A stretch of 64,000 nucleotides of DNA, from positions 40,482 through 104,481 of the forward strand of contig JAZLHA010000002.1 of NCBI GenBank assembly GCA_045616625.1, read 5' to 3'. How positions within the stretch are numbered: position 1 is the first letter of the stretch; every line of letters begins with the position of its first letter. A program made the position numbers and the translations under genes. Below the pieces are notes generated by a model, which searched no databases, was not told the DNA's origin, and saw only the letters and a list, made by a program, of their open reading frames with translations. The stretch is from Candidatus Enterousia sp. Its GTDB lineage: Bacteria; Pseudomonadota; Alphaproteobacteria; Rs-D84. Below are positions 11,628 to 63,899 of this stretch, piece by piece.

Positions 11628-12637
11628 TTTGAAATAATTTGCTGACGCAAAGCCTCTATCTTTTGGATGATTATATCATAAGATTGTGGAATAGAACCAT
11701 CGCCATTTGATACACATGTATTGTTTACCTTGGTATATCCAGGGACACAATCCCACTTCCAACAAATATTTTCCTTATCAGTATCCCATTCTATAAAACC
11801 ATCAAGACCAGAAGCGGGTTTGTCATATCCATCACAATATCTTTCTATACAATCAGAGCTCCATGCATCGTCTTTCCATAGTTGACTAAAACCACTGCCT
11901 TGTTTTTCACCAGAATCACCTTGACGGCATTGGCGAACACCACCGTATACTGGTGTTTGACCGTCGGTTGTACAGAACATATAACCACCAATATCAACTT
12001 GTCGTTCGCCTTTGTTAAATGCGGTGTTACAACAAGTGTATGTATTATTATTCGCCGGGTCGTTCATACAGTCTGTTTCGGAAAAAAGTTGAGAACCGGC
12101 AACCGCGCCACCAATAACCGCACCACTTGCGATCGTAATACCATAACCAATTTGACCAAGTCCAGGAATTAAATTTATCAGTGGTGTTGCCATAGCTGCG
12201 CCAGTGGCACCACTAATTGTTCCTTCAGCTACATCACCCCAATTATGTTGCTTGTTTCCAGATGCAGAATCAATAACACCCATGGTGCCAGCAGCCAAAC
12301 CAACCGCCCCCAGTGCAGCACCACCAACAGCTTTAGGAGTAATTTTTTTTGCAGCAGTTGCTGTAGCAGTTGCTGGTGTTGATGTCGGAGTAGGCATCGG
12401 TGTAGGAGTAGCTGTTGTAGTAGGAGTGGAAGTAAGAGTAGGTGCTGGATTAGATACCGGTGCAGTAATAAATTTTCCAGTATTAGCGTCGCGCCAACGA
12501 TGATCTGAAATGCTTTGAACAGGAACAACACCAGGATCACTAGCAGACAAACCAAACGACGTCACAGGTAAAACTAAACAAAAAATCGAAAAAACAAGTT
12601 GTACTAATTTCATCAATATTGTCCTTGCAATTTGCAT
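11609..12637 (-). CDS. Hypothetical secreted protein (Thr/Pro linker, glycine zipper, Cys-rich C-domain)
   Basis: Signal-like N-terminus, PTLTSTPTTTATPTPMPTP linker, GxxxG-rich hydrophobic segments, many C-terminal Cys; overlaps both neighbours. Confidence 0.8.
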   Translation of the reverse strand: MQIARTILMKLVQLVFSIFCLVLPVTSFGLSASDPGVVPVQSISDHRWRDANTGKFITAPVSNPAPTLTSTPTTTATPTPMPTPTSTPATATATAAKKITPKAVGGAALGAVGLAAGTMGVIDSASGNKQHNWGDVAEGTISGATGAAMATPLINLIPGLGQIGYGITIASGAVIGGAVAGSQLFSETDCMNDPANNNTYTCCNTAFNKGERQVDIGGYMFCTTDGQTPVYGGVRQCRQGDSGEKQGSGFSQLWKDDAWSSDCIERYCDGYDKPASGLDGFIEWDTDKENICWKWDCVPGYTKVNNTCVSNGDGSIPQSYDIIIQKIEALRQQIISKCGAIE

Positions 12638-25750: not shown

Positions 25751-28146
25751 TTCTTGACCACAAAGTTGACGAGTTTGTTCGGAACAACAATTGTTTTGAT
25801 TATTTCTGCACCATTTAACTGACGTGTGGCGGCATTTTTAGCCGCTTCAATAATTTCATCATTTGTTGCGGTTGTCGCAATATCAAATTGATTTGCGCGT
25901 TTCCCGTTCACAGAAACAACAATTGTCATAGATGATTTAACCATTTTGGATTCATCGTATGTTGGCCATGGTTCAAACACCATCATATCACTATGTCCCA
26001 ATTTTTCCCACATTTCTTCGGTTAAATGTGGCGCAAACGGATTCAATAGCTGAATCAGAATCTCGTATGCGGGGCGGGGCATTTTACCACCGTTAAACGC
26101 ATTTATAAATTCCATCATCGCAGAAATAGCAGTATTAAAGTGCATATTATCCAAGCGGTCTGTGACATCAAATACCAATTGATTGACCAATCTTTCCTGT
26201 TCGGCATCCATTGGATCACCGGTTAAATTGTCAGATAAATTTTCAATTCGTTTAAGGAATCTTTGAACGCCGGATAGGGTGCCTTCGGTCCAAATAACAT
26301 TGTTTTCCCATGGTCCAAGTGACAATACTGCAACACGACCAGCATCAGCGCCAACACGATCAACCAAATCTGCAACCATAAATCCGTTGCCGCGTGATTT
26401 TGACATTTTATAGCCGTCATTACCCATTAGCAAACCCTGGGCAGTACGCTTTTTATATGGTTCTGGGGTTGTAACCAAACCCAAATCAAATAGGGCATGA
26501 TGCCAAAAACGCGAATATATCAAATGGCGTGTATTGTGTTCGTGACCGCCGTTATAGTGCGTCACAGGCATCCATTTTTCCATTTGTTCGTGCGAACAAA
26601 ATTCTTTATCGTTTTTAGGGTCCAAATAACGCATATAATACCACGATGAACCCGCCCAACCCGGCATAGTATCAGTTTCGCGTTTAGCATCGCCACCACA
26701 ACATGGGCATTTTGTATTTACCCAATCTGTTGCGCGTGCCAATGGGCTTTCGCCTTGGTCTGTTGGACGATAGTCCATCATATATGGCTGAATTATTGGC
26801 AATTCAGATTCCGAAACAGGAACCCAACCACATTTTTCACAATAAATCATTGGAATAGGTTCGCCCCAATACATTTGGCGTGAAAAGCCCCAGTCTTTTA
26901 ATTTATATTTCGTTGTGCCGCGTGCAAAACCGTTCTTTTCACCATATTCAATGGCGGTTTTGATTGCAGTTTCTTTATCCATACCGTCCAGGAACTCAGA
27001 ATTTATATGCAGTCCATCGCCCTCGTAAACTTTGTCCGGTTCGCCACCAGATAATACAGGGATAATGTCCAATCCAAACTTTTTAGCAAATGCCCAGTCG
27101 CGTGAATCGTGCGCAGGAACCGCCATAATTGTTCCATACGCATAATCTGCCAATACGTAATCAGATGTGAATACCGGAATTTGTTTTCCTGTAAATGGAT
27201 TTACTGCGGCAACACCTTCCAGTTTTATACCGGTTTTTTCACGTGTTCCATCTGTTCTTTCTATTTCTGTTTTTGCCGCAGATGATTTAATGTAGGCTTC
27301 TACTTCTTCTTTGTTTGTGACTTTGCCTTCGTTCAACCATTTGCGCAATAGTTTGTGTTCTGGGGCAATAACACAGAAAGTGACACCGAATATAGTATCA
27401 ACGCGTGTTGTATAAATTGTCATTGTGTCATCGCCAACCTTGAAATCAACATCGGCACCGTGTGAACGCCCAATAAGATTTATTTCGTCTTTCTTGATGC
27501 GTTCATCAAAATCAATGTCTTTTAATCCATCTAATAATTTATCAGCATATTTAGATAGAGCCAAATTCCACTGCATTTTTTCTTTCTTTTCAATTATTCC
27601 ATGACAGCGTGGACATTTGTTGTCTTCCAATTCTTCATTGGTAAATGTTGTTTTACATTCTGGACACCAATTCATCGGCAGGGCAGATTTATACGCCAAT
27701 CCCGCCTTAAAAAATTGTATAAACATCCATTGTGTCCATCTAATATATTCAGGGTCAGATGTCGCGATACGGGTTTCAGGACTAACCGACCAACCAACGC
27801 GGTCAATCATTTCAGAATAAGATTTTATCAAATCTTTGGCAACATCAGCAGGGTGACGACCAATTTTTGTAGCATAATGTTCGCCCGCAATTCCCATGGC
27901 GTCAAAGCCCATTGGAAACAAAACATCATAACCGCGATGACGGCGATAACGTGCCAAAACATCCATGCCGGAATAGTTCATCATATGGCCGGCGTGCATA
28001 CCCGCCCCAGATAAAAACGGAAATTCAACAAGAGTATAAAAACGTGGCTTTGAGCCGTCGTTTTTAGGCACAAAAGCGCGTGCATCGCGCCAGCGTTTTT
28101 GCCATTTTGCTTCACGTTCTTGAATTTGTTTCATATCGTCTGCCAT
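25747..28146 (-). CDS. leuS: Leucine--tRNA ligase
   Basis: EFPFLSGAGMHAGH (HIGH variant), WGFSRQMYWGEPIP, DTMPGWAGSSWYY, KMSKSRGN; start chosen at 28146 (MADDM). Confidence 0.97.
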   Translation of the reverse strand: MADDMKQIQEREAKWQKRWRDARAFVPKNDGSKPRFYTLVEFPFLSGAGMHAGHMMNYSGMDVLARYRRHRGYDVLFPMGFDAMGIAGEHYATKIGRHPADVAKDLIKSYSEMIDRVGWSVSPETRIATSDPEYIRWTQWMFIQFFKAGLAYKSALPMNWCPECKTTFTNEELEDNKCPRCHGIIEKKEKMQWNLALSKYADKLLDGLKDIDFDERIKKDEINLIGRSHGADVDFKVGDDTMTIYTTRVDTIFGVTFCVIAPEHKLLRKWLNEGKVTNKEEVEAYIKSSAAKTEIERTDGTREKTGIKLEGVAAVNPFTGKQIPVFTSDYVLADYAYGTIMAVPAHDSRDWAFAKKFGLDIIPVLSGGEPDKVYEGDGLHINSEFLDGMDKETAIKTAIEYGEKNGFARGTTKYKLKDWGFSRQMYWGEPIPMIYCEKCGWVPVSESELPIIQPYMMDYRPTDQGESPLARATDWVNTKCPCCGGDAKRETDTMPGWAGSSWYYMRYLDPKNDKEFCSHEQMEKWMPVTHYNGGHEHNTRHLIYSRFWHHALFDLGLVTTPEPYKKRTAQGLLMGNDGYKMSKSRGNGFMVADLVDRVGADAGRVAVLSLGPWENNVIWTEGTLSGVQRFLKRIENLSDNLTGDPMDAEQERLVNQLVFDVTDRLDNMHFNTAISAMMEFINAFNGGKMPRPAYEILIQLLNPFAPHLTEEMWEKLGHSDMMVFEPWPTYDESKMVKSSMTIVVSVNGKRANQFDIATTATNDEIIEAAKNAATRQLNGAEIIKTIVVPNKLVNFVVKK

Positions 28147-28223
28147 AATAAAACCTTTGTTTACAATGCTAGGTATTTTATAGTGGATAGTGTGGTAATT
28201 CAAGTTTTTTTATAAAAATTTCC

Positions 28224-28252
28224 TTTACATATATTTCCAGATTGTATAAAAT
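28224..28252 (+). promoter_or_regulatory. Sigma70-type promoter for the 28472 gene leader
   Basis: TTTACA-N17-TAAAAT. Confidence 0.55.
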
Positions 28253-28280
28253 TTTTGTGTCATGATGAGTTATCATGATG

Positions 28281-28440
28281 GGGTGTAGAAACCCGAACCA
28301 GAGCGTCAAATATTTTCATTGTTTGACGAAAATTCTCCTAATTATGGTTAGGAGGGTTGCGATATATCTGAATAAGCAACACAATTCTCTGGATTGTTTC
28401 TAACCTCCTGACCACTTGATTTTTAATCAGTGGTTTTTGT
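28281..28440 (+). ncRNA. Structured cis-regulatory leader, C4/CI antisense-RNA-like, ending in an intrinsic terminator
   Basis: Pairings TAGAAAC(28286)/GTTTCTA(28396), CCAGAG(28298)/CTCTGG(28387), CGTCAAA/TTTGACG, CTCCTAA/TTAGGAG, GTTGC/GCAAC; alternative TGGTTAGGAGG(28345)/CCTCCTGACCA(28404); terminator stem plus U-tract at 28411-28440. Confidence 0.65.
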
Positions 28441-28471
28441 TTAAAACAAAGAAAAGGGGAGATTTTTTACA

Positions 28472-29383
28472 ATGCGTCGATTGTTGTGTGCTTTTTTAGC
28501 ATTCATATTTTGCACCGTCGCATTGTCCGCCGAATGCCCAATCGGCACCACCCCCGCACAATATATTCAGTTGGAATATATTGAGTCAACCGGAACACAG
28601 TATATTGATACGGGGGTGTTAGCAGAATCTGGAAAAAGTTGGGAAATAGAATTTTCTTTTAGTTCTCTAGTTAATAATGGTTTTATAGGTGCAAGAGTTT
28701 CTAATTTTCGTTTTTGGTTTATTTTATATAGTTCTTACTTTGATTTAGGTTTGGGAGACGACCGTTATATTAGTAGTGTTCCGATTGTGGCGGGTAATAG
28801 GTATAAAAACACACTTGTCACGGATAATAACGGTTGGGTTTCATATATTAATGACATTGAGGTTGCCAAAGGAAACGATGTCGCAACAAAAGAAACTATT
28901 AAAGGTAGTATATATTTATTTAAGATAAATAATGTTTCTGGTTCAGGATATTCTGGTAACTCACGAATATATTATACAAAGATATGGGATGGTGATGCTC
29001 TTATCTACGATTTTATTCCTGTCTTACGTTTAAATGGCGGTAAACCCGGGATGTATGATAAGGTAAGTGGAAGGTTCTTTACAAATCAAGGGACTGGGGA
29101 ATTTATCGCCGGTCCAGAAGTGTCAACAGAATTTATGAATTTTAATAAATGTAATCCTTGTCCGCCGAATACCTATAAAGATTTTGTTGGGAACGGCGAA
29201 TGCACACCATGTCCGGATGCGTTGATATCGCCGTCGGGGTCAAAAAGTGTGTCTGAATGTGGACGCGTTCTGCATATTGGCGATAAAATATATCATATGA
29301 AGTCTGTTAAACAGACATCCCCCGCATTACATATTCGCGATGAAAACGGAAATGTTTGGTACGGCAACCTATATTCAGAATAA
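28472..29383 (+). CDS. Secreted chimeric protein: phage-tail-like ConA/LamG lectin fold + Eph-receptor-like Cys repeat + short C-terminal beta domain
   Basis: Signal peptide; LEYIESTGTQYIDTG…RIYYTKIWD…DFIPV…GMYDKVSGRFFTNQGTGEF; CNPCPPNTYK…ECTPCP…GSKSVSEC. Confidence 0.8.
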   Translation: MRRLLCAFLAFIFCTVALSAECPIGTTPAQYIQLEYIESTGTQYIDTGVLAESGKSWEIEFSFSSLVNNGFIGARVSNFRFWFILYSSYFDLGLGDDRYISSVPIVAGNRYKNTLVTDNNGWVSYINDIEVAKGNDVATKETIKGSIYLFKINNVSGSGYSGNSRIYYTKIWDGDALIYDFIPVLRLNGGKPGMYDKVSGRFFTNQGTGEFIAGPEVSTEFMNFNKCNPCPPNTYKDFVGNGECTPCPDALISPSGSKSVSECGRVLHIGDKIYHMKSVKQTSPALHIRDENGNVWYGNLYSE

Positions 29384-29596
29384 GAAATAATAAAAAAACC
29401 GCGGAATTCTGCGGGTTGGGGCGTAAAATAGCTGTTTTTTAGTAAAAAATCAGAAAATTACGAATTTTGGTGTAAAAATGCACTAAAAACAGTGTGTTGT
29501 GTAATATTATGGGTCTGTGGCGGAAAATGATGAAAATAGGGCTTAAAACCGCCAAAGCCTATAAAACGCAAGGTGTTGCGGTGAAATGATTTACAG

Positions 29597-29675
29597 TATA
29601 AAATTTATAAAAATTTGAATAAAAAATAAATTTTTTTAGAAAAATTTTTTATTAGAAATTTTTATAAATTTTATA
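29597..29675. repeat. AT-only long inverted repeat (potential cruciform)
   Basis: Perfect 20-bp arms (29597-29616 / 29656-29675) plus inner 10-bp arms (29618-29627 / 29644-29653). Confidence 0.85.
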
Positions 29676-29811
29676 TTTTTTTCGGAAAAAATTATTTTTC
29701 TGCGCACAAACACACAAAACAAAAACAATTTTATATTGCAAATAATATGTCATTTTGCGAAAAGCATAAAAACATTAAAAACCCACTAAATGCTATATTA
29801 CCAATAATCTA

Positions 29812-29839
29812 ACTATACATAATATACATTATGCGCCTT
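29812..29839 (-). other. dif: dif site (XerC/XerD chromosome dimer resolution)
   Basis: Minus strand AAGGCGCATAA-TGTATA-TTATGTATAGT versus E. coli GGTGCGCATAA-TGTATA-TTATGTTAAAT; intergenic, between convergent genes. Confidence 0.88.
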
Positions 29840-30004
29840 TTGTATGTTGTGTGCCCCGTCGGTATGGGTGGAGTTGATTCTGAATAGGAAAATATCTGAA
29901 ACGCCCAGAAATCTGGGAATAAGTTATATAAAATATACTATTATAAGTGGTGGTTTTTAGAAATATAATCTGCGTAATTTTAGCAAATAAATAATAAAAA
30001 ATTA

Positions 30005-30043
30005 TGGCGACACCCCTATTTTATATAATATAAAGGTGTCGCC
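30005..30043 (-). terminator. Hairpin downstream of mscL
   Basis: GGCGACACC…GGTGTCGCC arms with an A-run on the plus strand to the left. Confidence 0.7.
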
Positions 30044-30049
30044 CTGTTG

Positions 30050-36741: not shown

Positions 36742-37054
36742 GCACAGGTGGACAGAACATAGCCGTATGATGTAAAATTCATGCGGAGGAAAGTCCGGAC
36801 TGCATAGGGACGGCGTACGGGCTAACGACCCGGCGGAGTGATTCGACGATTAGAGCAACAGTGACGTAAGCGATTAAATTCGTGGTGAAACGGGCAATCT
36901 CTACGCGCAGCAACTTCAAATAGGCCCCCTTGTTTGTCCCTAGCGTACAGGGGGCGGGTAGAAGGCTTGACATTTTGTGGTAACACATTATGCAGACTAA
37001 TTATGTTCATCAGCATTTGCTGATACAGAATCCGGCTTATCGTTCACTCTGTGC
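36742..37054 (+). ncRNA. rnpB: RNase P RNA (compact)
   Basis: GAGGAAAGTCC (36786) and ACAGAATCCGGCTTAT (37025) form P4; the ends pair as P1. Confidence 0.95.
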
Positions 37055-37111
37055 ATTTTTTATAATAAAAATTTGCATTTGGTATAAATAGGTGTTATAC
37101 TAATGCGCATT

Positions 37112-37188
37112 CGGGGTGTAGCTCAGCCTGGTAGAGTACTTGGTTTGGGACCAAGGTGTCGGAGGTTCGAACCCTCTCACCCCGACCA
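37112..37188 (+). tRNA. tRNA-Pro(TGG)
   Basis: Anticodon arm CTTGG-TT TGG GA-CCAAG; GGTTCGAA; CCA; TTGCAT-N17-TATACT promoter upstream. Confidence 0.96.
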
Positions 37189-37361: not shown

Positions 37362-37377
37362 CCTCTCACCCCGACCA
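37362..37377 (+). repeat. Exact 16-bp copy of tRNA-Pro(TGG) 3' end (att-like)
   Basis: CCTCTCACCCCGACCA is identical to 37173-37188. Confidence 0.85.
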
Positions 37378-37392
37378 CGAAATTCAAAAATA

Positions 37393-38537: not shown

Positions 38538-38802
38538 CTATCTCCAACCCGACCACCCTTCGCCAAGGCTTCGGGTGGCAAAGCCACGAATCCGCTTATG
38601 CTGTCGCTACAGCGAGATAAAATTCAAAACCACCACATTTGTGGTGGTTTTTAATTTTGTGTATGTGGTTAAAATTGGATTTGATATATCACAACAAAGT
38701 TGTCGGTTCGACTATGATTAAGCGAAAACGAGTCTTGCGAAGTTTGAGTGCTAACGAATGCGGCACAGGCATTTATGCCGAGCCTATCTTTCGCCCCGAC
38801 CA
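38538..38802 (+). repeat. Two further degenerate tRNA-Pro 3'-end copies with intervening palindromic elements
   Basis: CTCCAACCCGACCA (38542-38555), then CCCTTCGCCAAGGCTTCGGGTGG palindrome and terminator-like hairpin; CTTTCGCCCCGACCA (38788-38802) followed by a near-copy of the tRNA's downstream flank. Confidence 0.75.
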
Positions 38803-38889
38803 TAAAAATTCAAACCGCGTTTATCGCGGTTTTAATTTTTTACTCTTTTGTGGAACAGAGTGTAATTTTTTATAGTGGGTGTATCGTTT

Positions 38890-60256: not shown

Positions 60257-60465
60257 ATAATCGACCGTTTTTGATCAATGTAACTTTCACTATTAGTATA
60301 TTTTATCCTTTTTACAATTTTGTTCTTTGGTTGTTCTGAAAATGGGTGTTCTAACCCCCCTTTTAGTTGATTGGACGTCAAACAATTAATTAAAATTAGG
60401 AAAAAATGTGTTGTTTTTATTATTGGTTTATTTTATACTAAGAACCATTATAAAAGGAGAAAATA

Positions 60466-61665
60466 ATGAAAAAATACGCAATTTTAACATCTGTATTAGC
60501 TTTAACAGCATGTGGCGGTGGTTCAGGTGGTGGTAATGCCCCTGTTGCCCAAGATTTAGGAATGCGTGTATCTAGTGATGCAATACTAAGTAATAAAAAT
60601 GTTACGTCTATGGCATCTGAAATTTTAATAGCAAAAGACGGAACGTCACCGAATATTGTTCGTTCTTCATCTGTAGTTAATGGTGGAACAGAATATATTG
60701 CCTATCACTTAGATGATGCAAAATTTTTTGGAAACGATATGAAATCAGATGAATATATATCATTTGGGATAGATAACAATGGTCAAATAGATAAAATGAT
60801 GTATCATTGGAACGAAGGTGGGTCTGATAAAACAGAATCTATGGATAGAAACGGTCCAAACACTAATATTTTTACAGAACACGTTTACAAATATAAAGTA
60901 GAGGTTGCTAGTGACACATATTATACAGATTCGTTGCCGATTGGGCAATATACCAAACAGCAGATAAAAGATGCTTTTGCTGATGCGTATAGAGGAGAAG
61001 AACCAGATTCTGTGTTTGACGAGATTAATAACAAAATTGATTCAACAGATATGCAACCGATAGAGTATGTGCATAATCATGTTATTGATTTACAGGGTAA
61101 AAATTTGCCAGATTCTCATAAATTAAGATATTCAGATTTTGGATACACAACAATACTTGCAAAAGAAATTAGCGAACCGGGTGATGGCGATGGCGATGAT
61201 AACACAGTTGTTTTCGGTGGGTATGCAATCAAAGAAATACAAAATCCTACACTAACTACTGATATGACATTTTCAGGAAAAGCCATTGCTGCTTTGGGGG
61301 GTATTCATCAAAATGGTGTAAAGAAAATAGAAACAGACGATACTGCTACAACATTAACCATTGATAATAATGGAAAACAGACACTGACAATGCCTTTTAA
61401 TGATTATTATACAATTAATGTTGAAAAATCACAAAATGGTAATGAAACTATTAGTTGGACAGGAAATACATCACTTGATTACGTTGACCCAGAAACAAGC
61501 GAACATAAAAACTTTGCATTGGATGCAAATCAACATGTAAACAATCAAGCTGTTAACGTCAAATACTATGGTGATGCAGGTGTGCCTTCAGAAGCAGTTG
61601 GTGGTATAGGTTTTCAAAATAACGGTGTCGAATTTAACGGGGCTTTTGGTGTTAAAGCACAATAA
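60466..61665 (+). CDS. Surface lipoprotein, TbpB/fHbp-like C-terminal barrel (copy 1)
   Basis: Lipobox LTA|C, GGGSGGG linker, LRYSDFG, FGGY, C-terminal FNGAFGVKAQ. Confidence 0.85.
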   Translation: MKKYAILTSVLALTACGGGSGGGNAPVAQDLGMRVSSDAILSNKNVTSMASEILIAKDGTSPNIVRSSSVVNGGTEYIAYHLDDAKFFGNDMKSDEYISFGIDNNGQIDKMMYHWNEGGSDKTESMDRNGPNTNIFTEHVYKYKVEVASDTYYTDSLPIGQYTKQQIKDAFADAYRGEEPDSVFDEINNKIDSTDMQPIEYVHNHVIDLQGKNLPDSHKLRYSDFGYTTILAKEISEPGDGDGDDNTVVFGGYAIKEIQNPTLTTDMTFSGKAIAALGGIHQNGVKKIETDDTATTLTIDNNGKQTLTMPFNDYYTINVEKSQNGNETISWTGNTSLDYVDPETSEHKNFALDANQHVNNQAVNVKYYGDAGVPSEAVGGIGFQNNGVEFNGAFGVKAQ

Positions 61666-61683
61666 TATAAAAGGAGTGATTAA

Positions 61684-62694
61684 ATGAAAAAATATGCAAT
61701 TTTAACATCTGTATTAGCTTTAACAGCATGTGCCGGCGGTTCTGGGGGTGGAAGTGCTGGCGGTGCGCTTAGTCCAGAGGAAAGTAATTTGGCTGTTACT
61801 GGTATGCGAACTTCAGTTGAGATTGATAAAAATGGTCATAGTGTGAATGTGCGTTCTGCTGTAACACCTCGTAATTCTGCTGTGGGGTATACAGAACTCT
61901 CTAATGGAAATAAGATTTATGATTTAAGAAATGTAAAGTTTACTTTCGGAGATGAACAGTTTGGGAAAGATTCACTAACCTTTGATGTAGATTCTGATAA
62001 AAAAATTACAAAGTTTATTATAGCAGAAGAGCATGGGGGTAAAAGAACATTTAACCGCATAGGTGACACAAATACATTTGAGGGTAAAGTTGATGTCGGA
62101 ACAGAAGAAGATGGGGTATTAACTTATAATTCTATGGGTAAAGATTTGGGGTTACAATACTCGGATTTCGGAAATTTTGATGTAAAAGTTGGTGGTGTAG
62201 GAATAAGCGATTGGGCTGTTCCTTTTGCTGGTGGATATGATGTTAAAAAGATAGATGCAGAAAATATATCTGATAATGCAACTTTTGAAGGTAGAGCGAC
62301 GGGATATGCGGCAAAAGTCACGGGCAATGTTGATGAAGCCGTTATGGTTCCTCTTGATTCCGATGCAAAGTTAGAATTTGATGGTGCTACACATACGAGT
62401 ACACTAACCGCCAATTTTGACAATTGGTATGATGTAAAATACACAGAATCGGGAACTACAAAAGAAATAGAGTTTTCAAATTATGTTGGAAATGGACCAC
62501 AATTTGATAAGACAACGTACAATTTAGATGATATAAATACAAACGAAAAACCAAAAATAGAATCAGATATTCATTATTATGGTGATGATGGTATTCCGAC
62601 CGAAGTAACGGGGGTAATTCAATTGCGTGAATGTTCTGGTGATTGCGGGGATTCTCCAGAAGTTCGTATGAATTTGGGTTTTGGTGCTAAATAA
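61684..62694 (+). CDS. Surface lipoprotein, TbpB/fHbp-like C-terminal barrel (copy 2)
   Basis: Same signal peptide; LQYSDFG, FAGGY, C-terminal MNLGFGAK. Confidence 0.85.
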   Translation: MKKYAILTSVLALTACAGGSGGGSAGGALSPEESNLAVTGMRTSVEIDKNGHSVNVRSAVTPRNSAVGYTELSNGNKIYDLRNVKFTFGDEQFGKDSLTFDVDSDKKITKFIIAEEHGGKRTFNRIGDTNTFEGKVDVGTEEDGVLTYNSMGKDLGLQYSDFGNFDVKVGGVGISDWAVPFAGGYDVKKIDAENISDNATFEGRATGYAAKVTGNVDEAVMVPLDSDAKLEFDGATHTSTLTANFDNWYDVKYTESGTTKEIEFSNYVGNGPQFDKTTYNLDDINTNEKPKIESDIHYYGDDGIPTEVTGVIQLRECSGDCGDSPEVRMNLGFGAK

Positions 62695-62708
62695 GAAAGG
62701 AAAAAATA

Positions 62709-63899
62709 ATGAAAAAATACGCAATTTTAACATCTGTATTAGCTTTAACAGCATGTGCCGGAGGTTCTGGGGGTGGAAACCCTCAAGTAGGAAATGAAAT
62801 CACTCCTAGGTCAGTAATAGTTTCAGATAGTGTGAAAGAATCAAACAAGGAAGTGGTAGGCAGTCTTGCAAGTCAAATTTTAGTTGCAAAAGACGGTGTT
62901 TCACCAACCATTGTCCGTTCTGCAACTGTAAATCACGAAGGTAAAGAATATACATTATATGATTTAAATGATGTTGAATTTAAAACAACATCTTTGAAAA
63001 TGAATACAGGTATTGATGATGGTGCCATCGTCACTTTTATTACAGATAAAAATGGCCAAATTGATAAAATTCATATGATAGCCGAAAATGAAACAAAAGA
63101 CACTAAATTAGAGGCTCTTGCAATCCGTGACGATAAAGATGAAGAAGGAAATTCATTTATTGCTATAGAGGGCGGTTATGTTAGCCCAGAAGGTTCGGAA
63201 AGTTCGGTAGATGCTATAGTTGGTTATCATAGTATAAATAAAAAGAATGAGATTGGATTAAGATATTCTGATGTTGGGGTTATAGCATGGGGTGATAGAA
63301 ATACAACAGACCTTGATACAAGCAATTATTTTGCTGGTGGTTATACCGTACAAAAAGTAAACCCGCAAGAGATTGATACTAATGTTACTTTTAAAGGAAC
63401 TGCAGAGGCTGTTGTTAGGGTTGGTTCCCTTGGTGAACACGAACCTACTTTTACAGAAGGCAAAAATCAACTTACTCTTGATGATGCAAATGCTACATTA
63501 GTATTTAATAAAGAGACAAAACAAAGTACATTAACCACTAATTTTGGAGATAATTGGTATGCTGTTAAAGCAACGATGGACAAAAATGGTAAATTGGATA
63601 CATTACAATTTGATAAAACTGGCAAAACTATAGACAATAAGTTTGCATGGAACGCTAGTCCAGATGAAAATGGTGTTATTAAAGCGCACAATAAAACAGA
63701 AGATATACAAGAAGGCGACCATGTTCGTACATTTGTTCATGACGGTTTTGTACAATATTATCACGATACAGATAGTAATGCACCAAAAGAATCTGTTATG
63801 GCTATAAGATATGCAGATAGTAATGGTGGTCCAAACAACGGGCAAGGTGGAGCAGAAAATATGAGATTTGATATGGGCTTTGGTGGTAAAGCTCAATAG
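62709..63899 (+). CDS. Surface lipoprotein, TbpB/fHbp-like C-terminal barrel (copy 3)
   Basis: Same signal peptide; LRYSDVG, FAGGY, C-terminal FDMGFGGKAQ. Confidence 0.85.
   Translation: MKKYAILTSVLALTACAGGSGGGNPQVGNEITPRSVIVSDSVKESNKEVVGSLASQILVAKDGVSPTIVRSATVNHEGKEYTLYDLNDVEFKTTSLKMNTGIDDGAIVTFITDKNGQIDKIHMIAENETKDTKLEALAIRDDKDEEGNSFIAIEGGYVSPEGSESSVDAIVGYHSINKKNEIGLRYSDVGVIAWGDRNTTDLDTSNYFAGGYTVQKVNPQEIDTNVTFKGTAEAVVRVGSLGEHEPTFTEGKNQLTLDDANATLVFNKETKQSTLTTNFGDNWYAVKATMDKNGKLDTLQFDKTGKTIDNKFAWNASPDENGVIKAHNKTEDIQEGDHVRTFVHDGFVQYYHDTDSNAPKESVMAIRYADSNGGPNNGQGGAENMRFDMGFGGKAQ

What the first reader, a model, noticed from the sequence alone, without database searches (positions are those of the whole stretch)
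28224..28471. Phage C4/CI-like antisense RNA switch apparently domesticated as an attenuator of a surface-protein gene
Seen: promoter, then a ~160-nt leader with two mutually exclusive folds. In fold A, CTCCTAA/TTAGGAG pairs and the terminator ACCAC-T-TGATT/AATCA-GTGGT plus U-tract (28411-28440) can form 30 nt before the ATG. In fold B, TGGTTAGGAGG (28345) pairs with CCTCCTGACCA (28404) and sequesters the terminator base. The 28345-28414 unit carries CTCTGG and GTTTCTA, exactly complementary to upstream CCAGAG and TAGAAAC. Known: P1 C4 and P4 CI RNAs are leader-encoded RNAs, RNase P-processed, whose loops pair with targets in the same transcript to block the downstream antirepressor (P4 CI acts through premature termination). 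Inference: the same architecture here controls a lectin-like surface protein, possibly as a bistable or phage-responsive switch.
Basis: partly seen in the sequence, partly recalled or inferred. Interest (0 to 1): 0.75.

Follow-up and report, generated by a model that had tools for sequence, protein, structure and literature searches.

The report
Two-state RNA leader before surface-protein genes
The stretch is a real RNA switch of a previously uncatalogued family: a leader that can fold either into a transcription stop signal or into a shape that cancels it, found in front of many secreted-protein genes of uncultured, small-genome gut bacteria, built like the C4 immunity RNA region of phage P1, with an unknown trigger.

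Summary
Window 28224-28471 contains a promoter, a ~180-nt structured leader and an intrinsic terminator about 30 nt before the ATG of a secreted lectin-like protein. The RNA folds far better than shuffles (z = -5.0).

I found 77 homologues (class I) plus 7 of a second subclass, all from gut or rumen Alphaproteobacteria (Ca. Enterousia / Rs-D84-like). Each lies just upstream of an ORF on the same strand. Most ORFs encode signal-peptide proteins; some encode small XRE-HTH proteins.

- **T state (terminating):** P0, P1, P1b, P2, P3, P4 and the terminator.
- **AT state (read-through):** P0, Px, and a 9-11-bp basal stem closing P4 and P5.

Predicted energies favour the T state, so the default is OFF.

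The AT state has the architecture of P1 c4-a1b1 plus C4/sRNA-Xcc1. Rfam membership nevertheless fails:
- No match in the window or in 30 of 31 leaders scanned.
- One sub-threshold sRNA-Xcc1 hit at 34 bits against a gathering score of 53.
- No a2/b2 targets downstream.
- Mostly housekeeping gene neighbourhoods.

Verdict: a new family of cis-acting terminator/antiterminator leaders with a C4-like design. The effector is unknown, and trans action and RNase P processing are untested.

The parts
28224..28252 (+). Sigma-70-type promoter: -35 TTTACA 28224-28229, -10 TAAAAT 28247-28252. The likely start is about 28258, at the foot of P0.
   Evidence: 10 of 12 matches. In 76 homologues a TAnAAT box lies at -12..-7 from the first base of P0 (T58, A63, A67, A51, T61 of 76), with TTG at -35..-33 and an A/T-rich stretch upstream.
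28259..28279 (+). P0: a 9-bp 5'-terminal hairpin (GUCAUGAUG AGU UAUCAUGAU), present in both states.
   Evidence: In one search, 8 of 9 pairs show double changes and 97.5% of cells are paired. In position and size it resembles the first hairpin of Rfam c4-a1b1 in P1.
28280..28294 (+). 5' arm: GGGG plus the a1-like segment UGUAGAAAC. In the T state it is the 5' strand of P1 (28280-28292). In the AT state it folds on itself as the small hairpin Px (GGGU 28281-28284 with ACCC 28291-28294), with a1 in the loop.
   Evidence: P1: helix 2, 7 of 12 pairs with double changes. Px: GC 55, GU 12, AU 9, none unpaired at the informative pair; 0 of 500 shuffles reach the score; GAGG always with ACCU; GGAG with ACUC.
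28298..28303 (+). b1-like strand CCAGAG, the 5' strand of P1b.
   Evidence: It pairs with CUCUGG 28387-28392. Among 78 homologues there are 73 distinct 5' strands. Each has a cognate partner of 5-13 consecutive pairs (mean 7.95), against 5.43 for non-cognate partners.
28304..28328 (+). P2 hairpin (CGUCAAA...UUUGACG). It is variable in length and absent from some members (both L106 copies).
28335..28354 (+). P3 hairpin: CUCCUAA 28335-28341 (anti-antiterminator strand) pairs with UUAGGAG 28348-28354.
   Evidence: helix 3: 5 of 7 pairs with double changes. The class II subfamily replaces it with CCCCGAC/GUCGGGG.
28345..28414 (+). Switch unit, a three-way junction of the AT (read-through) state. 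Basal stem: UGGUUAGGAGG 28345-28355 with CCUCCUGACCA 28404-28414. P4: 28356-28380, with the conserved GAUAU..GAAUAA apical part. P5: ACAAU 28381-28385 with AUUGU 28393-28397, whose loop holds b' (CUCUGG 28387-28392). Joiner a': GUUUCUA(A) 28396-28403.
   Evidence: The unconstrained basal pair is GC 66, UA 5, AU 2, while the same 3' column paired in P1 gives 8 mismatches. P5 pair: AU 47, UA 18. P4: all 3 pairs covary. L059 has GGAUG:CAUCC. Class II has GUYGGGGUG:CACCCCGAC. The same architecture aligns to sRNA-Xcc1 in homologue L158 at 34 bits.
28410..28442 (+). Intrinsic terminator: stem GACCACU-GAUU / AAUCAGUGGUU followed by UUUGUUU. Its first 4-5 nt belong to the basal stem of the AT state.
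   Evidence: helix 6 (pair 316-362: AU 36, GC 27, GU 11). The MFE contains the terminator in 65 of 67 members.
28456..29383 (+). Regulated gene: SD GGGGAG 28456-28461 and ATG 28472. The 303-aa secreted protein has a signal peptide, a LamG/pentraxin-like beta-sandwich (LEYIESTGTQYIDTG family) and a C-terminal Cys-rich Ephrin_rec_like module.
   Evidence: PF07699, 2e-08. (1201 relatives, gut Alphaproteobacteria MAGs). (pLDDT 80.5). (pentraxin and laminin-G domains, E about 1e-4, target-normalised TM about 0.5).

Best explanation
This is a cis-acting transcription attenuator of a new RNA family, made as the 5' leader of the downstream gene.

**Sequence of events.** Transcription starts 6-7 nt after the conserved -10 box, at the foot of hairpin P0. 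The nascent leader can settle in one of two states.

- **T state (gene OFF).** The 5' arm (GGGG + a1-like + b1-like strands) pairs with the 3' part of the switch unit (b'-like loop, a'-like joiner, CCUCC) to form the long P1/P1b helix. The strand CUCCUAA holds GGUUAGGAG in hairpin P3. The terminator stem is then free to form, and RNA polymerase stops at the U-tract about 30 nt before the ATG.
- **AT state (gene ON).** The 5' arm folds back on itself as hairpin Px. GGUUAGGAGG leaves P3 and pairs with CCUCCUGACCA, making the basal stem of a three-way junction with P4 and P5. This occupies the first 4-5 nt of the terminator stem, so polymerase reads into the gene.

**What controls the choice (inferred).** Predicted energies favour T by about 8-12 kcal/mol. 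Read-through therefore needs the 5' arm to be kept away, or the junction to be stabilised. I think the controlled step is the intramolecular, antisense-like pairing of a1/b1 with a'/b'. The controller would be a macromolecule (a protein or RNA binding the conserved P0-GAUGGGGUGU region or the junction) or transcription kinetics, rather than a metabolite.

**Shown:** both folds, their mutual exclusion, their conservation, and the leader's position.
**Inferred:** termination and read-through as the outputs.
**Unknown:** the effector.

The design matches the P1 c4-a1b1/C4 region, but here it is coupled to an intrinsic terminator and to chromosomal surface-protein genes.
For: - Fold z = -5.0.
- 77 class I homologues at 59-195 bits and 7 class II homologues.
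- T-state covariation: 27 of 40 pairs with double changes, 0 of 500 shuffles. P1b cognate versus non-cognate partners.
- AT-state covariation: basal stem, P5 and P4 and Px.
- All three switch strands change together in L059 and in class II.
- The terminator is in the MFE of 65 of 67 members. The AT fold costs +12 kcal/mol on the full leader and +8.4 on the prefix before the terminator's 3' strand exists.
- The leader is always on the same strand as, and just upstream of, an ORF. This holds in all 9 protein-retrieved loci and in all 59 metagenome cases where an ORF could be called.
- A conserved promoter sits at a fixed distance.
- There is no conserved leader ORF.
- The architecture equals P1 c4-a1b1 + C4 and sRNA-Xcc1.
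Against: - There is no transcript data: no RNA run could be listed for the two stretches tried. Termination at 28436-28442 and read-through are therefore inferred from sequence.
- Many members have interrupted U-tracts, and one divergent member (L103) has none.
- The effector is unidentified. In-silico energies say the AT fold should rarely form unaided.
- 68 of the 77 class I sequences were retrieved with a pattern that fixes P3 and the basal stem. Evidence for those helices therefore rests on flanking positions, the 9 protein-retrieved loci and class II.
Confidence: 0.72

Rival explanations
1. It is a small-molecule or second-messenger riboswitch. The T-state multi-helix junction (P1b/P2/P3/P4) is an aptamer, and ligand binding stabilises P1 and so termination. 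Without ligand the AT fold forms.
For: - It has the classic aptamer-plus-terminator layout, with the P1 3' strand shared with the antiterminator.
- It occurs in several copies per genome in front of different genes, like a regulon: 3 copies on one 377-kb contig.
- Bases at helix ends are conserved: CGUC/GACG of P2, an A-rich J2/3 and the P4 apical GAAUA..GAAUAA.
- Known c-di-GMP riboswitches also control surface proteins (my own knowledge).
Against: - P2 is variable and absent in some members.
- Almost every conserved stretch is explained by having two alternative pairing partners.
- The controlled genes are secreted proteins and XRE regulators, not transporters or enzymes.
- The 5' arm has its own conserved alternative hairpin, Px.
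- No Rfam riboswitch matches.
Confidence: 0.15
2. It is a true C4/CI-type antisense RNA. The 28345-28414 unit would be cut out by RNase P at its 5' end and act in trans. It would pair with a1/b1 of new transcripts of the same locus, giving positive feedback and bistability, or with other targets.
For: - The architecture is identical to P1 c4-a1b1 + C4 and to sRNA-Xcc1, including an RCC tail after the basal stem.
- One homologue scores 34 bits on sRNA-Xcc1 (E = 1.6e-4 in 251 nt; 0.008 in 12 kb).
- Two IMG/VR contigs carry a copy beside P2-like tail genes.
- The precursor of P1/P7 C4 RNA is an RNase P substrate (Hartmann et al. 1995, listed in PMC4919922).
- An RNase P RNA gene is present in the window.
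Against: - No C4, c4-2 or c4-a1b1 match at E <= 10 in the window or in the 30 homologous leaders scanned. The Xcc1 hit is 1 of 31 and below gathering.
- No a2/b2-like sites downstream: cognate 8.34 versus non-cognate 8.26.
- a/b sequences differ between copies on one contig.
- In the favoured T fold the unit's basal stem is not formed, so it is not an RNase P-like substrate.
- Gene neighbours are mostly housekeeping.
Confidence: 0.1
3. It is an independent small RNA gene with its own promoter and terminator, whose function is unrelated to the gene downstream.
For: It has its own promoter and terminator, and the terminated ~180-nt product is predicted to be stable.
Against: - It has the same strand as, and lies close to, an ORF start in every locus with enough sequence. 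Usually there is no room for another promoter.
- A conserved antiterminator has no purpose in a free-standing sRNA gene.
Confidence: 0.03

Closest known systems
Phage P1/P7 immI leader: c4-a1b1 (RF03163) plus C4 antisense RNA (RF01695)
   Same: The order of parts is the same:
- A -10 box, then about 6 nt, then a 7-9-bp hairpin.
- A 4-bp hairpin whose loop carries a1, followed by b1.
- A three-way junction with a basal stem, hairpin 1, hairpin 2 with b' in its loop, a 6-7-nt joiner carrying a', and an RCC tail.
a1/b1 are complementary to a'/b' within the same transcript (searches compared with 27, 37, 70).
   Different: - No CM match.
- The basal stem is 9-11 bp rather than 17.
- An extra strand (P3 5') competes for the basal stem.
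- An intrinsic terminator overlaps the basal stem.
- No a2/b2 sites at the RBS.
- The downstream genes encode secreted proteins or XRE proteins, not icd/ant.
- Processing and trans action are unknown.
sRNA-Xcc1 (RF02221), an integron-, plasmid- and phage-borne sRNA
   Same: It has a 9-bp basal stem, hairpin 1 with an AAUA-containing loop, hairpin 2 with a CUnUGU loop, a 6-nt joiner UUnnAG and an RCCC tail. Homologue L158 aligns over the whole model at 34 bits. APSE phages carry an Xcc1-family RNA upstream of an ORF6N-domain protein gene (PMC7313666).
   Different: The score is below the gathering value of 53, and only 1 of 31 leaders scanned gives any hit. Xcc1 is described as a trans-acting sRNA. 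Here the unit is embedded in a leader, with cis partners and a terminator.
Satellite phage P4 CI RNA (immunity by premature termination)
   Same: It is a leader-encoded structured RNA whose pairing with complementary sequences in the same transcription unit decides premature termination (my own knowledge; not tested here).
   Different: As I recall it, P4 CI acts in trans after processing and works through blocked translation and Rho-dependent termination. Here an intrinsic terminator is toggled directly by alternative folding. No sequence or CM comparison with P4 was made.
Terminator/antiterminator leaders in general (riboswitches, T-box, PyrR/TRAP-type, leader-peptide attenuators)
   Same: It uses three-strand logic: an anti-antiterminator (P3 5'), an antiterminator (the basal stem) and a terminator, placed between the promoter and the gene.
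   Different: - No match to any Rfam cis-regulatory family.
- No leader peptide.
- No T-box or specifier features.
- The sensor is unknown.
- Both states are elaborate multi-helix folds with covariation.

Membership tests
Rfam C4 clan CL00128 (C4, c4-2, c4-a1b1) | Covariance-model score at or above gathering (C4 45 bits; c4-a1b1 46.7 bits) | tested here: not met
   There is no match at gathering over the whole window, none at E <= 10 in 28100-28550, and none in 30 homologue loci. As a positive control, P1 scores 68.8 and 51 bits.
Rfam C4 clan CL00128 (C4, c4-2, c4-a1b1) | Three-way junction: basal stem, two hairpins, a single-stranded joiner and an RCC tail | tested here: met
   This is the AT-state unit 28345-28414. 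Covariation is seen in the basal stem, P4 and P5. The layout was compared with the C4 consensus.
Rfam C4 clan CL00128 (C4, c4-2, c4-a1b1) | Upstream a1/b1 segments complementary to a' (joiner) and b' (hairpin-2 loop), with a1 in the loop of a short hairpin after a 5' hairpin | tested here: met
   P1 and P1b covary. Px is a 4-bp hairpin with a1 in its loop. P0 lies directly upstream.
Rfam C4 clan CL00128 (C4, c4-2, c4-a1b1) | Second target pair a2/b2 downstream, overlapping the RBS of the regulated gene | tested here: not met
   The best cognate duplex between a'/b' and the 150 nt downstream averages 8.34 pairs, against 8.26 for non-cognate pairs, in 71 members.
Rfam C4 clan CL00128 (C4, c4-2, c4-a1b1) | Processing by RNase P to a ~77-nt trans-acting RNA | not testable with these tools
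   No RNA run could be listed for the window or for L093.
Rfam C4 clan CL00128 (C4, c4-2, c4-a1b1) | Location in a phage or prophage immunity region upstream of icd/ant-type genes | tested here: not met
   In the window the leader lies between leuS and a secreted-protein gene. In L106 it lies among mnmE, ruvA, ruvC and yebC. Only 2 IMG/VR contigs have a copy near P2-like tail genes, and there it precedes a secreted protein.
sRNA-Xcc1 (RF02221) | Covariance-model score at or above gathering (53 bits) | tested here: not met
   The best score is 34 bits in L158. There was no hit in the window or in the other 29 leaders scanned.
Riboswitch | Conserved aptamer coupled to an expression platform with mutually exclusive terminator and antiterminator | tested here: met
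Riboswitch | Direct binding of a small ligand | not testable with these tools
   No biochemical data exist. No Rfam riboswitch matches.
Riboswitch | Association with genes of one metabolic or transport theme | tested here: not met
   The downstream genes include LamG-like, Flg_new-repeat, trypsin-like, OMP beta-barrel and other secreted proteins, plus XRE-HTH proteins.
Leader-peptide attenuator | Conserved short ORF in the leader | tested here: not met
   The AUG in GAUGGGG is missing in about 40% of members, and ORF lengths range from 3 to 44 codons.
T-box leader (considered because leuS is adjacent) | Rfam T-box match, orientation toward the aaRS gene, and linkage to aaRS genes in relatives | tested here: not met
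   No Rfam hit. The RNA is on the strand opposite to leuS. No leuS lies next to the leader in the 8 other protein-retrieved loci that carry it.

The most novel reading that the evidence does not exclude
The leader could be a chromosomal, multi-copy descendant of the phage C4-type antisense module, working as a self-contained or self-reinforcing RNA switch. Processed or terminated leader RNA would feed back on nascent leaders of the same locus. Each surface-protein gene of these small-genome gut bacteria could then flip between stable OFF and ON states without any DNA change. That would be RNA-based phase variation of the cell surface.
Probability: 0.12. Interest if true: 0.88.

Novelty: new variant of a known kind. 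Interest (0 to 1): 0.7.

Why it matters
- **A new structured-RNA family.** It adds at least 84 examples in two subclasses that Rfam 15 does not cover. Unusually, both alternative conformations are supported by covariation.
- **A regulon in a poorly known lineage.** It defines a set of secreted or surface proteins and small XRE regulators in Rs-D84 / Ca. Enterousia-like Alphaproteobacteria. Members of this order have genomes mostly under 1 Mbp and remain uncultured (PMC12306168). Nothing is yet known about how their genes are regulated.
- **A different use of the C4 design.** The C4/c4-a1b1 layout, known from phage immunity regions, may also be wired to an intrinsic terminator and used in front of ordinary chromosomal genes. 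That bears on how antisense modules and attenuators evolve into one another.
- **A tractable orphan switch.** Its trigger could be sought with standard in vitro transcription and probing.

Tried and rejected
1. **Rfam scans.** I ran Rfam at gathering and at E <= 10 on the window and on 30 homologue loci. There was no C4, c4-2, c4-a1b1, T-box or riboswitch match. The only relevant result was one sub-threshold sRNA-Xcc1 hit.
2. **Minus-strand reading as a leuS leader.** Rejected. The terminator and G-U pairs fit only the + strand, minus-strand CM scores are at most 28 bits against 194, and leuS is not linked to the leader elsewhere.
3. **Repeat or mobile element within the window.** There is no second copy in the 64 kb.
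4. **Leader peptide.** Rejected.
5. **a2/b2 targets.** Cognate sites downstream are not enriched.
6. **RNA-seq evidence.** No RNA run was listed for the window or for L093. Only DNA metagenome runs from horse and other gut samples hold the sequence.
7. **Generic three-strand-plus-terminator scanner.** My own scanner was too noisy to count members: 215 hits against 57 in shuffles. It did point to the class II subfamily, which I then confirmed by alignment.
8. **A unit-only alignment (A6) for a second CM to search P1.** I did not build the model. Its invariant stems would make a negative result uninformative.
9. **Literature.** Searches for a described motif in these bacteria found nothing.
Full report
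**1. What is in the sequence**

The finding lies in the 268-nt gap between two divergent genes. One is leuS, on the minus strand, with its ATG at 28146 (Pfam tRNA-synt_1 and the LeuRS editing domain). The other is a 303-codon ORF on the plus strand at 28472-29383.

- A promoter-like site, TTTACA-17-TAAAAT, at 28224-28252.
- Hairpin P3: CUCCUAA 28335-28341 with UUAGGAG 28348-28354.
- A terminator hairpin at 28410-28435 followed by UUUGUUU.
- The alternative pairing UGGUUAGGAGG 28345-28355 with CCUCCUGACCA 28404-28414.
- The complementary pairs CCAGAG/CUCUGG and UAGAAAC/GUUUCUA.

As RNA, 28250-28475 folds to -68.1 kcal/mol. Dinucleotide shuffles give -46.9 +/- 4.3, so z = -5.0 and none of 200 shuffles is as good. 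The minimum-energy fold has these parts:
- A 5' hairpin, P0.
- A long helix, P1 (GGGGU-UAGAAAC with GUUUCUA-ACCUC), continued by P1b (CCAGAG with CUCUGG).
- These close a junction of three hairpins, P2, P3 and P4.
- The terminator follows.

**2. Relatives**

The organism is an uncultured gut alphaproteobacterium. The 303-aa protein has 1201 relatives, and all those that carry a source name are labelled Alphaproteobacteria MAGs. A genome scan with a protein alignment returned 80 loci, mostly titled proteobacterium, Alphaproteobacteria or Ca. Enterousia. This is order Rs-D84, whose genomes are mostly below 1 Mbp (PMC12306168).

Retrieval of homologous leaders went as follows:
- nhmmer with the leader found three homologous leaders. 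Their alignment already showed compensatory changes.
- A covariance model built from these four sequences (R1) found the RNA in 9 of 81 sources at 78-195 bits. Each hit was on the strand of, and just upstream of, a member of the protein family. leuS was not adjacent in any other locus.
- Retrieval through the protein biases the gene association. I therefore scanned metagenome contigs with a DNA pattern taken from the switch helices. Of the 80 loci returned, 69 hits were true members by CM score.
- In total there are 77 non-identical class I sequences (alignment A5).
- A second subclass turned up in which all switch strands carry different sequences (L002, L091b, L022, L025, L044, L046, L061).

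**3. Gene association**

In the pattern-retrieved set the downstream genes are diverse:
- 10 of 59 belong to the LEYIESTGTQYIDTG family.
- Others carry Listeria-Bacteroides (Flg_new) repeats, a trypsin-like domain, an outer-membrane beta-barrel, or Cys-rich repeats.
- Several are 80-110-aa XRE-type HTH proteins.

By a crude test, 38 of 59 have a signal-peptide-like N-terminus. One human-gut contig of 377 kb has three copies. Two of them lie among mnmE, ruvA, yebC and ruvC. Many short contigs end at or inside the leader, as expected for a multi-copy repeat.

The window's own product has three parts:
- A signal peptide.
- A beta-sandwich matching pentraxin and laminin-G domains (model pLDDT 80.5; Foldseek E about 1e-4).
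- A C-terminal Ephrin_rec_like Cys-rich module.

"Lectin-like secreted protein" is therefore a fair description.

**4. Two conserved conformations**

*T state.* On A5, the structure P0, P1, P3, P4 and terminator has 96.3% of cells paired and 27 of 40 pairs with double changes. No shuffle of 500 reaches these values, and slid controls give 35-50% paired. P1b is too variable to align, so I tested it differently. There are 73 distinct 5' strands among 78 sequences. Each has a cognate partner of 5-13 consecutive pairs (mean 7.95), against 5.43 for non-cognate partners.

*AT state.* Three observations support it.
- The basal stem GGUUGGAGG:CCUCCAACC was fixed by my search pattern in most sequences. 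The flanking, unconstrained pair is GC 66, UA 5, AU 2. The same 3' column, paired as in P1, gives 8 mismatches.
- L059 has GGAUG:CAUCC together with AUCC in P3. Class II has CCCCGAC / GUYGGGGUG / CACCCCGAC. All three competing strands therefore change together.
- The conserved ACAAUU...AAUUGU forms hairpin P5, with covariation to ACUAU...AUAGU (AU 47, UA 18). The loop of P5 is the 3' strand of P1b, so P5 and P1b exclude each other.

The 5' arm has its own alternative, Px. GGGG pairs with the CCC that follows the P1 5' strand, which puts the a1-like segment in the loop. GAGG always goes with CCU and GGAG with CUC; 0 of 500 shuffles reach the score.

Both states are therefore under selection.

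**5. Energetics**

- The terminator is part of the MFE in 65 of 67 members.
- Forcing the basal stem costs a mean of 12 kcal/mol on the full leader.
- It costs 8.4 kcal/mol on the transcript before the terminator's 3' strand exists, where 72 of 73 prefix MFEs contain P1.
- For the window the costs are 6.0 and 2.0 kcal/mol.

The default is the terminating fold. Read-through needs either that the 5' arm be unavailable or that the junction be stabilised.

**6. Promoter and coding potential**

- A TAnAAT box lies 6-7 nt before P0 in nearly all members, with TTG at -35 and an A/T-rich upstream stretch. The promoter is therefore part of the module, and the RNA starts at P0.
- There is no conserved leader ORF.

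**7. Comparison with C4**

*Membership by Rfam fails.* Rfam 15 gives nothing for the window at gathering or at E <= 10, and nothing for C4-clan models in 30 homologue loci.

*One sub-threshold hit.* The switch unit of homologue L158 matches sRNA-Xcc1 at 34 bits. Gathering is 53. E is 0.008 in the 12-kb search and 1.6e-4 in 251 nt. All three helices, the joiner and the tail align.

*Positive control.* I fetched phage P1 and scanned its immI leader. The C4 consensus has a basal stem, a short hairpin, a second hairpin with a 12-nt loop (b'), a 7-nt joiner (a') and an aCC tail. c4-a1b1 has a 7-bp hairpin 6 nt after the -10 box, followed directly by a 4-bp hairpin with an 8-nt loop.

*The AT state of the present leader has the same plan:*
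- P0, 6 nt after the -10 box.
- Px, 4 bp with a 6-8-nt loop that holds the a1-like segment.
- The b1-like strand.
- A three-way junction whose hairpin-2 loop and joiner are complementary to b1 and a1.
- An RCC tail.

*Differences:*
- No CM-level similarity.
- No a2/b2 sites downstream (cognate 8.34 versus non-cognate 8.26).
- An extra competitor strand, P3 5'.
- An intrinsic terminator overlapping the basal stem.
- a/b sequences that differ between copies on one contig.
- Housekeeping gene neighbourhoods.

Two IMG/VR contigs hold a member (95.9 bits). In L202 it lies next to a P2-like tail module, a PLD nuclease and a methylase, and there too it precedes a secreted-protein gene. Descent from a phage module is possible but not shown.

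**8. Mechanism**

*Shown:*
- Two mutually exclusive folds.
- Their conservation.
- The promoter-leader-gene arrangement.

*Inferred:*
- The T state terminates transcription at the U-tract (28436-28442).
- The AT state lets polymerase pass.
- The decision is made when the a'-CCUCC segment emerges. It is then either captured by the 5' arm (T) or invades P3 (AT).

*Unknown:* what shifts this choice. I favour a macromolecular or kinetic control of the intramolecular a1/b1-a'/b' pairing over a metabolite. My reasons are that nearly all conserved nucleotides are explained by dual pairing, that P2 is dispensable, and that the regulon is not metabolic. A riboswitch is not excluded.

No transcript data could be obtained.

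**9. Verdict**

It is a new family of cis-acting terminator/antiterminator leader RNAs with a C4/Xcc1-like design. It controls, by inference, secreted and surface proteins and small regulators in Rs-D84 gut Alphaproteobacteria. It is not a member of the Rfam C4 families as they are defined. Whether it is their relative by descent, and whether it also acts in trans, remains open.

Noticed in passing
window 36744-37056, 37112-37185, 37362-37382, 38787-38807: RNase P RNA (class A, 193 bits) is followed by a tRNA. The 3' end of that tRNA (CCTCTCACCCCGACCA...) recurs twice downstream at 90% and 86% identity, around a dapA-like gene. These could be att-like remnants of an integration at the tRNA.
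   Followed up: no
window 60453-60536, 61671-61754, 62696-62779: Three tandem paralogous lipoprotein genes have near-identical RBS and signal-peptide regions (82-93% identity). They are another expanded surface-protein set, but without the leader RNA.
   Followed up: no
window 29384-30049: An unusually long (~660 nt), very A/T-rich non-coding stretch lies after the 303-aa gene. It contains a 30-nt inverted repeat (29597-29626 / 29646-29675, 87% complementary) and no ORF of 40 aa or more.
   Followed up: no
L103 1148-1370 (Ga0123353_10000118, GC 52%): A divergent member, scoring only 27 bits on R1, lies upstream of an XRE-HTH gene. It has the same P0/Px/P1/P1b/P3/unit plan, but the hairpin after the unit has no U-tract, and the SD GGAGG lies about 20 nt further on. 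The expression platform may be translational.
   Followed up: partly
L002 2775-2985; L091 7666-7885(-); L022, L025, L044, L046, L061 (alignment A7): This is a second subclass of the leader in which the three competing strands are CCCCGAC / GUYGGGGUG / CACCCCGAC instead of CUCCAAC / GGUUGGAGG / CCUCCAACC. In six of the seven it lies upstream of genes of the same LEYIESTGTQYIDTG family (L091b came from the pattern scan, and a signal-peptide ORF follows it). The family is therefore wider than my search pattern captured.
   Followed up: partly
L202 1-14363 (IMGVR_UViG_3300024269_000278); L204: An IMG/VR contig has a P2-like tail module (sheath, tube, tape measure, gpD-like), a lysozyme-like gene, a PLD nuclease and a DNA methylase. 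Next comes the leader RNA (12006-12205) and a 316-aa secreted protein. This could be a prophage cargo gene or the prophage border.
   Followed up: partly
L100, L134, L137, L115, L121, L086, L087, L125, L139: Many metagenome contigs end at or within a few nucleotides of the leader. This suggests that the conserved leader is a multi-copy repeat that breaks short-read assemblies.
   Followed up: no
L106 4208-4651 and 8365-8804: Two leader-plus-XRE-HTH modules face each other across a 3.7-kb block of housekeeping genes (mnmE, ruvA, yebC, ruvC). Both leaders lack hairpin P2.
   Followed up: partly
window 28275-28403: A 42-codon ORF starts at the AUG inside the conserved GAUGGGG. It is not conserved in relatives (start codon missing in about 40%, length 3-44 codons) and is probably not translated.
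   Followed up: yes
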